DNA of 63,428 bases, the filler included, from Pirum gemmata (taxonomy: Eukaryota): NCBI GenBank assembly GCA_002812295.1. It is 30 parts of 30 records of this genome, joined end to end, with 100 filler letters (N's around TTAATTAATTAA, not from the genome) between each part and the next. Parts side by side here need not be neighbours in the genome. Positions count along the whole stretch, not along the records: positions 36,349 to 38,300 come from PDIN01009924.1; 29 more parts are not named here. One strand, written 5' to 3'. This document shows positions 36,831 to 37,820 of the stretch, one piece after another. The translations under genes and the position numbers were made by a program. The number at the start of each line of letters is the position of its first letter. The first letter of the stretch is position 1. The notes beneath the pieces were generated by a model. It was not told where the DNA came from, did no database searches, and saw nothing but the letters and a program-made list of their open reading frames with translations.

Positions 36831-37820
36831 ATGGTTACCGAAGTAGAAAATCAAAACGGATATGAATCCGAAAGTGATGGAGATATTACTACAATAGATA
36901 ATATTTCTACTGACCCCAAAAAGAAAAGATTTAGCTTAAAGAGTCTCAAAAGGAACAGTAAAAGCAATTATCGCAGGAGTCAAGAATTATTGAATGAAGA
37001 GAAGCTTCGCGAAATCGATTCAAAATCTTTGGATCAAGAGCCTTTATTATTTTTGTTTTCCTGTCGGGAAACCTTTGATGTACTAAAAGATTTTCTAGAG
37101 TATGAATTCAACGCAGAAAATATGGAATTTGTTTCTGCTGTTTTGGATTATGAAATTGAACCCAGCGAAGCAAAAAGAATAGAACTTGCAGAAGAAATCT
37201 TCATGACCTATATTCGGTTTAAATCTAAATACCAAGTGAATTTATCGGATTCACAACGAAGTTTTGTCGACCAGCATAAAAATAGTGGGTCTCCAACTTT
37301 ATTTAGAGATTGTAAAGAAGAAGCTTTAAAAATCATGAAACTGAATTCTTTCCCACGTTTTTCTAATCAAGTTTCTGCTCTAGTTCATGAGTCTTGGAAT
37401 AGAATCACTGCGGCTTTCGATTCTGAAACAGTAGGTAACATTTTTTACGAAGAACTATTTGCTGCTGTGCCGGCTTTGAAAGCATTATTTACTAGAAATA
37501 CACCTCACGCTCAGAGTACTATGTTTGTTTCTATGGTTGATAATGCCATAACCATTTTAGATGATTTATCGCAATTAATACCAAAACTAGCTACTTTATC
37601 TGTACGACATCGTGCTTATGGATGTCACACTGGTCAGTTTTTCATTACTGGACAAGTTTTAGTTAAAGTGTTGAAAACTGCTGAAGGTGATAATTGGAAC
37701 GAAGATTTACAACAGGCTTGGGTTTGTGTTTACACCTTAATTGCTGCTGTAATGAAACAATACTTACCCGGTCCTATAGAAGAAGATGGACCTGGTTCCA
37801 AGAATTGTACTTTAATTTAA
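36831..37820 (+). CDS. RGS domain - globin domain fusion protein with C-terminal CaaX box, 329 aa, intronless
   Basis: RGS about 37044-37364 (DFLEYEFNAENMEF, AEEIFMTYI, QVNLS, LF..CKEEA..IMKLNSFPRF). 3/3 globin about 37365-37763 (LVHESW, FYEELF, ALF, AQS, LSVRH, G..LV..L, W..DLQQAW). Ends CTLI-stop; first ATG at 36831. Confidence 0.9.
   Translation: MVTEVENQNGYESESDGDITTIDNISTDPKKKRFSLKSLKRNSKSNYRRSQELLNEEKLREIDSKSLDQEPLLFLFSCRETFDVLKDFLEYEFNAENMEFVSAVLDYEIEPSEAKRIELAEEIFMTYIRFKSKYQVNLSDSQRSFVDQHKNSGSPTLFRDCKEEALKIMKLNSFPRFSNQVSALVHESWNRITAAFDSETVGNIFYEELFAAVPALKALFTRNTPHAQSTMFVSMVDNAITILDDLSQLIPKLATLSVRHRAYGCHTGQFFITGQVLVKVLKTAEGDNWNEDLQQAWVCVYTLIAAVMKQYLPGPIEEDGPGSKNCTLI

What the first reader, a model, noticed from the sequence alone, without database searches (positions are those of the whole stretch)
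36831..37820. RGS-globin-CaaX fusion: candidate haem/O2/NO-gated GAP for heterotrimeric G proteins
Seen: one intronless ORF, free of gaps, with a full RGS box, a 3/3 globin and the prenylation motif CTLI. The last RGS helix (NSFPRF) runs into globin helix A (SNQVSALVHESW) with essentially no linker. Established: RGS domains accelerate G-alpha GTP hydrolysis; the EN pair and the Asn of VN-L that contact G-alpha are kept, while the Asp of the usual DSxxRF is Asn here. The globin has TyrB10 (FY), PheCD1 (ALF), GlnE7 (AQS) and proximal HisF8 (RH), the flavohaemoglobin/Vitreoscilla-type pocket. Globin-coupled sensors are well known with bacterial outputs, but I do not know of a described RGS-globin. 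Inference: a membrane-anchored gas sensor that directly tunes G-protein signalling through a continuous helix.
Basis: partly seen in the sequence, partly recalled or inferred. Interest (0 to 1): 0.88.

Follow-up and report, generated by a model that had tools for sequence, protein, structure and literature searches.

The report
Haemoglobin-fused G-protein off-switch family
This gene joins a G-protein off-switch (RGS) domain to a haemoglobin-type domain, predicted to share one long helix and likely lipid-anchored in the membrane; it belongs to a family found in distant single-celled eukaryotes, once listed but apparently never studied, that likely lets oxygen, nitric oxide or redox state tune G-protein signalling.

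Summary
Confirmed: a gap-free 329-aa ORF with RGS (Pfam E 2.8e-13), globin (E 7.3e-14) and a C-terminal CTLI. It is not a one-off. 36 of 153 proteins examined hold RGS then globin; named ones come from ichthyosporeans, Rhizaria and a stramenopile. The junction register is identical in 40 of 45 junctions. AlphaFold2 (pLDDT 92.5, pTM 0.84) predicts one 37-residue helix from RGS helix 7 into globin helix A. The RGS4 Asn88, Asn128 and Arg167 equivalents are kept. Asp163 is Asn here and is Asp in only 5 of 41 units. HisF8 is kept in 38 of 41. The architecture is not unlisted: /RGS//Globin/ is a row in supplementary figure S6 of de Mendoza 2014 (PMC3971589), whose main text never says 'globin'. My searches found no study of it. 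The scan earlier noted the same family in another genome, and a reverse-order fusion in foraminifera. Best reading (0.5): a prenyl-anchored haem protein whose GAP activity is tuned by haem state through the shared helix. Haem binding, GAP activity, gating and expression are untested.

The parts
36831..37820 (+). Single-exon ORF, 329 aa: RGS-globin-CaaX protein
   Evidence: the exact protein is in the EukProt set
36915..36980 (+). Polybasic stretch (residues 29-50, 10 K/R of 22) in a low-confidence N-terminal tail; possible second membrane-binding or phosphorylation signal (inference)
   Evidence: a similar basic stretch in P0002 and P0003
37038..37373 (+). RGS domain, residues 70-181 (E92, E96, N97, N137, R176 kept; N172 replaces Asp163 of RGS4)
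   Evidence: Pfam PF00615 E 2.8e-13; Z 16.5, rmsd 1.9 A, 112 residues to RGS4 in 1agr; rmsd 1.3-1.7 A to RGS1/3/4/8/16/17
37305..37415 (+). Predicted shared 37-residue helix, residues 159-195 (RGS helices 7-8 running into globin helix A)
   Evidence: AlphaFold2 helix at model 94-130, pLDDT blocks 90-97; junction register constant
37365..37769 (+). 3/3 globin domain, residues 179-313 (TyrB10 Y206, PheCD1 F220, GlnE7 Q228, PheE11 F232, HisF8 H260)
   Evidence: Pfam PF00042 E 7.3e-14; best PDB sequence hit Hell's Gate globin I 3s1i E 4.7e-14, rmsd 1.4 A; Z 19.4 to neuroglobin
37806..37817 (+). CaaX motif CTLI, predicted geranylgeranylation site (rule recalled)
   Evidence: CTLL in P0002 and P0004; Cys at -4 in 14 of 36 family proteins

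Best explanation
The protein is likely a prenyl-anchored, haem-binding GTPase accelerator for G-alpha subunits whose activity is likely tuned by the ligand or redox state of the haem, through a helix predicted to be shared by the two domains. Shown: both domains, the motifs, the family and the fixed junction register. Predicted: the fold and the continuous helix 159-195. Inferred, step by step: (1) CTLI is geranylgeranylated and, with the basic tail, holds the protein beside lipid-anchored G-alpha. (2) HisF8 binds haem; TyrB10/GlnE7 would stabilise O2 or bind NO. (3) A change of ligand or iron state would shift globin helices E and F and with them helix A. (4) Helix A is the C-terminal part of the helix that carries N172 and R176, the residues at the positions that grip G-alpha switch I in RGS4, so a small shift would change the GAP rate. 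(5) G-protein signals would then last longer or shorter with O2, NO or redox level. Which ligand state is 'on' cannot be told.
For: Joint conservation: 18 of 40 complete units keep all five scored G-alpha-facing residues, and 17 of these 18 also keep HisF8, at about 25% overall identity. The globin is the more conserved half in close relatives (66-77% against 45-55% for RGS in P0002-P0004), and the junction is 62-76% identical in five relatives. The junction behaves like an intra-domain helix, not a linker: same spacing in 41 of 41 aligned units, while loops keep their commonest length in only 12 of 41 to 37 of 41; 40 of 45 with separately built domain profiles; 19 of 20 by an alignment-free motif count. 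AlphaFold2 gives pTM 0.84 for the two-domain core. Helix 7 is described as an RGS-specific determinant of G-alpha binding (PMC6499889, passages). The Asp163 position, on the shared helix, is remodelled family-wide (Gly 19, Asn 7, Asp 5 of 41). B10 and E7 vary together (Tyr/Gln 17, Phe/His 12, Tyr/His 3, Phe/Gln 0), as expected of working ligand pockets. Membrane anchors recur: CaaX-like end in 14 of 36 against 10 of 117 other hits, C-terminal hydrophobic segment in 5 of 36. Precedent for haem state acting on G-alpha: ferric human neuroglobin is a GDI for G-alpha-i (PMC4842972, passages).
Against: No functional test exists. Asp163 is one of three reported critical contacts (PMC8252600, passage), and it is not kept. 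22 of 40 complete units lack at least one of the five scored residues, and 6 of 7 second units of tandem proteins keep at most one, so part of the family is probably GAP-dead yet keeps the junction; a fixed register can reflect folding alone. Helix A is far from the ligand site and is not a usual output element of sensor globins (recalled). TyrB10 pockets are also typical of NO dioxygenases (PMC3820574, passages). Units for the 41-row count were chosen as continuous profile matches, which favours a constant junction. Relatedness inflates the B10/E7 and CaaX counts.
Confidence: 0.5

Rival explanations
1. Two working but uncoupled domains: a constitutive GAP that carries a globin to the membrane, where the globin scavenges NO or buffers O2 or reactive oxygen near G-protein machinery.
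For: The best sequence match is a single-domain flavohaemoglobin-like globin. TyrB10 is tied to O2 binding and NO dioxygenation (PMC3820574). Membrane-anchored protective globins exist (globin X; PMC7475203, passage). A fused helix can be fixed in length for stability alone.
Against: A carrier role needs no fixed register over 40 of 45 junctions. No reductase domain is present. The proximal G5 residue is Phe270, not the Tyr of Hell's Gate globin I (Tyr in 4 of 41 units); the role of TyrG5 in flavohaemoglobin catalysis is recalled.
Confidence: 0.25
2. The signal runs the other way, or the RGS is a dock: active G-alpha binds the RGS domain and the shared helix changes the globin's ligand affinity or redox chemistry, so the protein is a G-alpha effector with weak or no GAP activity.
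For: Loss of Asp163 in 36 of 41 units, and degenerate second RGS units that mostly keep HisF8. Some RGS domains have lost GAP activity and act as scaffolds (PMC3971589, passage). A rigid helix couples in both directions.
Against: Asn128, Asn88, Glu83, Glu87 and Arg167 equivalents are all kept in this protein and its five closest relatives. RGS2 is an active Gq-selective GAP with Asn at this position (recalled; three searches and two look-ups did not retrieve a paper to check it).
Confidence: 0.15
3. The globin is a haem-free structural or lipid-binding module that caps the RGS domain in place of its last helix.
For: PheE11 (F232) crowds the distal pocket in this clade; 3 of 41 units lack HisF8; non-haem globins exist (PMC8717448, abstract start).
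Against: HisF8 in 38 of 41 and PheCD1 in 40 of 41 units; B10/E7 covariation; rmsd 1.4 A to an oxygen-bound globin.
Confidence: 0.07
4. Assembly or annotation artefact: two genes joined by chance.
For: The assembly is gappy (3319 N of 63428 bases); expression is not shown.
Against: No N in the ORF; contigs of two runs cross the junction unchanged; 32 further proteins outside the seed alignment have the same fusion.
Confidence: 0.01

Closest known systems
/RGS//Globin/ and /Bactofilin//RGS//Globin/ architectures, supplementary figure S6 of de Mendoza, Sebe-Pedros and Ruiz-Trillo 2014 (PMC3971589)
   Same: Same domain order; I also recovered Bactofilin-RGS-globin proteins (P0021, P0027). The survey included Pirum gemmata (106 RGS, 16 G-alpha).
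   Different: Only row labels of a heat map; 'globin' occurs 0 times in the main text. The species cells could not be read from the text copy. No junction, anchor, pocket or function is described in what I saw (passages, figure supplement part 2 of 2).
Globin-coupled sensors (S family: HemAT, DosC, AfGcHK)
   Same: A globin fused to a signalling domain; the likely working principle.
   Different: They have an N-terminal S-family globin and a C-terminal output (PMC7475203, passage). Here the globin is C-terminal, structurally nearer neuroglobin and flavohaemoglobin-like globins (Z 19.4 against 13.1-14.1), and the partner domain is a GAP for heterotrimeric G proteins.
Canonical RGS proteins (RGS4, RGS3, RGS10, RGS16)
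   Same: Same fold (Z 16.5 to RGS4); Glu83, Glu87, Asn88, Asn128 and Arg167 equivalents kept.
   Different: Asp163 is Asn, Ser85 is Asn, the last short helix is replaced by globin helix A, and there is a CaaX anchor.
Human neuroglobin as GDI for G-alpha-i/o (PMC4842972)
   Same: Haem oxidation state linked to heterotrimeric G-protein control; same globin fold class.
   Different: Neuroglobin is a free single domain that binds GDP-G-alpha through its own acidic surface and blocks GDP release. Here a dedicated RGS domain would speed GTP hydrolysis.
Single-domain flavohaemoglobin-like globins (Hell's Gate globin I 3s1i, Vitreoscilla haemoglobin 1vhb)
   Same: TyrB10/GlnE7/HisF8 pocket; best sequence and Foldseek hit.
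   Different: PheE11 and PheG5 in place of Leu and Tyr; fused to RGS; lipid anchor motif.
7TM-RGS receptors of plants and protists (PMC3971589)
   Same: A membrane-bound RGS thought to be controlled by a fused sensing module.
   Different: The sensing module is a seven-helix receptor for an outside ligand, not a cytosolic haem domain.

Membership tests
RGS domain (PF00615) | Profile match above the curated cut-off and RGS fold | tested here: met
   50.7 bits against 23.9; Z 16.5, rmsd 1.9 A to RGS4
Canonical GAP-active RGS | Asn88 and Asn128 equivalents | tested here: met
   N97 and N137; roles from PMC8252600
Canonical GAP-active RGS | Asp163 equivalent | tested here: not met
   N172; Asp in 5 of 41 family units
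Canonical GAP-active RGS | Accelerates GTP hydrolysis by G-alpha | not testable with these tools
   Needs a single-turnover assay; no G-alpha sequence was on hand for a complex model
3/3 globin, F (flavohaemoglobin-like) family | Globin profile and 3/3 fold with PheCD1 and HisF8 | tested here: met
   52.7 bits against 22; F220, H260; rmsd 1.4 A to 3s1i
3/3 globin, F (flavohaemoglobin-like) family | Binds haem and diatomic ligands | not testable with these tools
   Needs spectroscopy
Flavohaemoglobin | C-terminal FAD/NAD reductase domain | tested here: not met
   The ORF ends 16 residues after the globin; no such Pfam hit
Globin-coupled sensor (S family) | N-terminal globin with C-terminal output domain | tested here: not met
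   Order is RGS then globin in this protein and in all 36 two-domain hits; definition from PMC7475203
Globin-coupled sensor (S family) | S-family (sensor/protoglobin-type) globin | tested here: not met
   Pfam Globin but no Protoglobin hit at E up to 1; sensor globins score Z 13.1-14.1 against 19.4 for neuroglobin
Globin-coupled sensor (S family) | Ligand state controls the output activity | not testable with these tools
   The central untested step
RGS//Globin architecture (de Mendoza 2014, fig. S6) | Pfam RGS followed by Pfam Globin at gathering thresholds | tested here: met
   27 of 30 candidate relatives also pass both cut-offs
RGS-globin family as one clade | Globin domains of the fusions form one group | tested here: inconclusive
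   One side of a branch, SH-aLRT 95, with 29+24 rows after dropping long-branch and near-duplicate rows; 3-5 changes with fuller sets; one clade not rejected, p-AU 0.756
CaaX-prenylated proteins | Cys fourth from the C-terminus, aliphatic a2, X = Leu/Ile | tested here: met
   CTLI; conserved in P0002 and P0004, but P0003 ends CTL; the modification itself is untested

The most novel reading that the evidence does not exclude
RGS-globins are an old, wide-spread class of eukaryotic gas or redox receptors, shared by opisthokont and SAR protists from a single fusion, in which haem state is levered through one helix onto the G-alpha switch-I contact. They would give a direct route from O2 or NO to heterotrimeric G-protein timing with no GPCR or second messenger, with Tyr/Gln and Phe/His pocket types tuned to different ligands or ranges.
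Probability: 0.4. Interest if true: 0.9.

Novelty: new variant of a known kind. Interest (0 to 1): 0.72.

Why it matters
How eukaryotic cells read O2 or NO directly into signalling is known for few proteins. A small, single-chain, confidently modelled protein that places a haem pocket on the same helix as the G-alpha-contacting residues makes 'gas-gated G-protein shut-off' testable with standard spectroscopy and a GAP assay. The family spans relatives of animals and SAR protists and comes with several anchors and pocket types, so a positive result would define a new sensor class and a compact design for ligand-controlled GAPs. A negative result would still need to explain why the junction is so rigidly kept.

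Tried and rejected
Expression: no RNA holder listed; run X1 is only guessed to be RNA, so transcription is not shown. Homodimer with haem: no verdict, score 0.26 against a mark of 0.32, alignment not used. No G-alpha complex was modelled, as no G-alpha sequence was on hand. First AlphaFold2 run with 4 sequences was poor (pLDDT 50) and was replaced by the 49-sequence run of the core. Word-index searches found only 3-4 relatives and no form of 577-2000 residues, although later returned such forms, so those blanks mean nothing. Locus scans of metagenome contigs, viral contigs and prokaryote genomes confirmed no relative; they use short exact patterns and are weak. No own genome was held, so paralogues and G-alpha partners in this organism were not counted. 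ESM Atlas gave no usable hit. No PDB chain among the listed rows covers both domains; the syNOS rows span the model only at rmsd 5.6-11.7 A. The Pfam SidE_mART hit (E 0.03, 13.7 bits against cut-off 27) was rejected as chance on the long helix. The careful tree and the mixture-model AU test did not finish; the AU value is from LG+G4 on a quick tree. A gap calculation used a wrong field and was redone. Literature: four searches pairing RGS with globin returned 0 papers. Of 12 papers listed, three were searched for 'RGS' with 0 occurrences and one was read in passages for other terms. The RGS2 Asn precedent could not be verified. Neighbouring ORFs (CotH kinase, ZIP transporter, LRR protein, DDE transposase fragment, tRNA-synthetase anticodon domain) show no functional link.

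Full report
Observation. The ORF at 36831-37820 (+) encodes 329 residues, has no N, and lies between gaps that end at 36348 and begin at 38301. Its GC and GC3 (0.345, 0.248) fall within the range of four other long ORFs of the window. Pfam gives RGS at 79-178 and Globin at 205-308, both well over the curated cut-offs. PDB sequence hits split the same way: Hell's Gate globin I and neuroglobins on 182-309, RGS proteins on about 80-186. Contigs of two public runs cross the junction with no differing letter; one may be the window's source. Expression is not shown.

Relatives. The closest named relatives are two proteins of the ichthyosporean Pirum gemmata, 58% identical, with the same architecture, so the window is probably from an ichthyosporean. 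A profile of four sequences run over 1.84 billion representatives gave 7477 hits, of which the best 150 were listed. With three seed proteins added, 153 were examined, and 36 hold both domains, 32 of them outside the seed. I sent 30 candidates to Pfam; 27 pass both cut-offs. Of 20 looked up, 6 carry species names: Pirum gemmata, Amoebidium parasiticum (ichthyosporean, recalled), Plasmodiophora brassicae and Leptophrys vorax (Rhizaria), and Chrysoparadoxa australica twice (stramenopile); the rest are unnamed environmental records. Forms include single unit plus CaaX, tandem units plus CaaX, unit plus C-terminal hydrophobic segment, and bactofilin-RGS-globin. A Cys fourth from the end occurs in 14 of 36 family proteins against 10 of 117 other hits (Fisher p 6e-5, relatedness not corrected); 5 of 36 have a hydrophobic tail. 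Several of the 36 are fragments.

The junction. In 41 aligned units from 35 candidates, chosen as continuous profile matches, the spacing from S178 to TrpA12 is 11 in all 41, like helical stretches inside the globin (40 of 41, 39 of 41) and unlike the most variable loops (14 of 40, 12 of 41, 29 of 41). To lessen the selection bias I used separate RGS and globin profiles: 40 of 45 junctions have the same register, 2 differ by one residue, and 3 are cases where a profile did not reach the domain end; by eye those 3 keep the register. Without alignment, 19 of 20 units with the P-R-F motif have Trp exactly 14 residues on. AlphaFold2 on residues 66-314 with 49 sequences gave pLDDT 92.5 and pTM 0.84, with one helix over residues 159-195. 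The RGS half matches RGS4 of the G-alpha-i1 complex at Z 16.5, residues 70-181 on 61-172; the globin half matches neuroglobin at Z 19.4 from residue 179. The domains overlap: there is no linker, and globin helix A stands where the last short RGS helix would be.

RGS surface. A review lists three critical contacts of RGS4: Asn128, Asn88 and Asp163 (PMC8252600, passage), and a double Asn128/Asp163 mutant with a third change abolishes GAP activity (PMC11259961, passage). Here N137 and N97 are kept, with E92, E96 and R176 (roles of these three recalled). N172 replaces Asp163. This is a family trait: Gly 19, Asn 7, Asp 5, other 10 of 41. All five scored residues are kept in 18 of 40 complete units; 6 of 7 second units of tandem proteins keep at most one. 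So the window's protein looks GAP-competent with an altered switch-I contact, and part of the family looks GAP-dead. RGS2, a Gq-selective GAP, has Asn at this position (recalled, not verified).

Haem pocket. HisF8 is kept in 38 of 41 units and PheCD1 in 40 of 41. Two distal types dominate: TyrB10/GlnE7 (17, including this protein) and PheB10/HisE7 (12). This clade has PheE11, PheG5 and a Cys at 265 beside the proximal side (10 of 41 units). In P0002-P0004 the globin is 66-77% identical to the query and the RGS 45-55%, so the globin is under strong constraint.

Origin. Globin-domain trees cluster the fusions strongly. With 29 fusion and 24 other rows, after dropping long-branch and near-duplicate rows, they are one side of a branch at SH-aLRT 95. 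With fuller sets the label needs 3-5 changes against 24-37 for shuffles. One clade is not rejected (p-AU 0.756). With 127-128 columns, no root and outgroups drawn only from my hit list, a single origin is plausible but not shown, and descent cannot be told from transfer.

Mechanism. Most likely (0.5): a geranylgeranylated haem protein whose GAP rate depends on haem ligand or redox state, because globin helix A is the same helix that carries N172 and R176. Rivals: uncoupled GAP plus membrane NO or redox scavenger (0.25); G-alpha dock or effector with the globin as output (0.15); haem-free globin (0.07); artefact (0.01). Only the anatomy is shown; the helix is predicted; anchoring, haem binding, GAP activity and coupling are inferred.

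What is known. The architecture is listed: /RGS//Globin/ and /Bactofilin//RGS//Globin/ are rows in the figure supplement of PMC3971589, whose main text has no occurrence of 'globin' (I saw passages, the hits in the table supplement and part 2 of 2 of the figure supplement; file 1 was not searchable). Four full-text searches pairing the two domains found no paper, and three globin or gas-sensor papers have no occurrence of 'RGS'. The library lacks most subscription journals, so this is 'no study found', not proof. It works like a globin-coupled sensor, if the inference holds, but it is not a member: wrong domain order and wrong globin family. Ferric neuroglobin acting as a GDI is the nearest functional precedent (PMC4842972, passages). 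Earlier notes of this scan (unchecked AI notes, read after my own tests) report the same family in the clubroot parasite, with the shared helix and the 2014 listing, and a separate globin-then-RGS family in foraminifera. I did not test the latter; no protein with only that order was among my 36. If real, it would mean the pairing arose at least twice.

Verdict. A real, conserved and structurally well-defined fusion; a new variant of the chimeric signalling globins, catalogued once and apparently uncharacterised. Interest 0.72; 0.9 if ligand gating is shown.

Noticed in passing
protein P0035: A 1169-aa protein with three globin stretches and a C-terminal PKD/TRP-like ion-channel domain (PF08016 E 9.5e-8): a candidate haem-gated cation channel. 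Related large multi-globin proteins (P0040, P0078, P0084, P0087) group with it in the trees.
   Followed up: partly
proteins P0098, P0100, P0115, P0134, P0140: Five proteins of 415-491 aa made of three RGS repeats and ending in a CaaX-like motif.
   Followed up: partly
proteins P0021, P0027: Bactofilin-RGS-globin proteins; a polymer-forming domain could array the units. One is from a stramenopile.
   Followed up: partly
protein P0160: A 118-aa fragment annotated in a beetle assembly clusters at 90% with the environmental RGS-globin P0019; it may come from a protist contaminant rather than the animal.
   Followed up: no
proteins P0005, P0006, P0008, P0010, P0011, P0091, P0138: Large repeat proteins with up to 14 profile-matching stretches; globin repeats with a cytochrome b5 domain (P0011, P0091) or a PH domain (P0138).
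   Followed up: no
window 14294-15817 (+): Single long ORF with a CotH kinase domain (PF08757 E 8.4e-18), an N-terminal signal-like stretch and a hydrophobic C-terminus, as for a surface-anchored protein.
   Followed up: partly
window 32366-33946 (-): LRR, transmembrane segment and a cytoplasmic tail with repeated Tyr-containing acidic motifs: a receptor-like protein about 3 kb upstream of the finding.
   Followed up: partly
window 23480-25097 (-): Fragmented DDE_Tnp_4 (Harbinger-type, recalled) transposase remains (PF13359 E 3.6e-19).
   Followed up: partly
window 28750-29799 (-) and 57468-58617 (+): A ZIP zinc transporter ORF (PF02535) and exons of what looks like a prolyl-tRNA synthetase (anticodon domain PF03129).
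   Followed up: partly
window 36249-36348, 38301-38400 and other gaps: Gaps of 100 bases consist of two runs of 44 N around the same 12-base A/T palindrome, a sign of a scaffolding step rather than biology.
   Followed up: no
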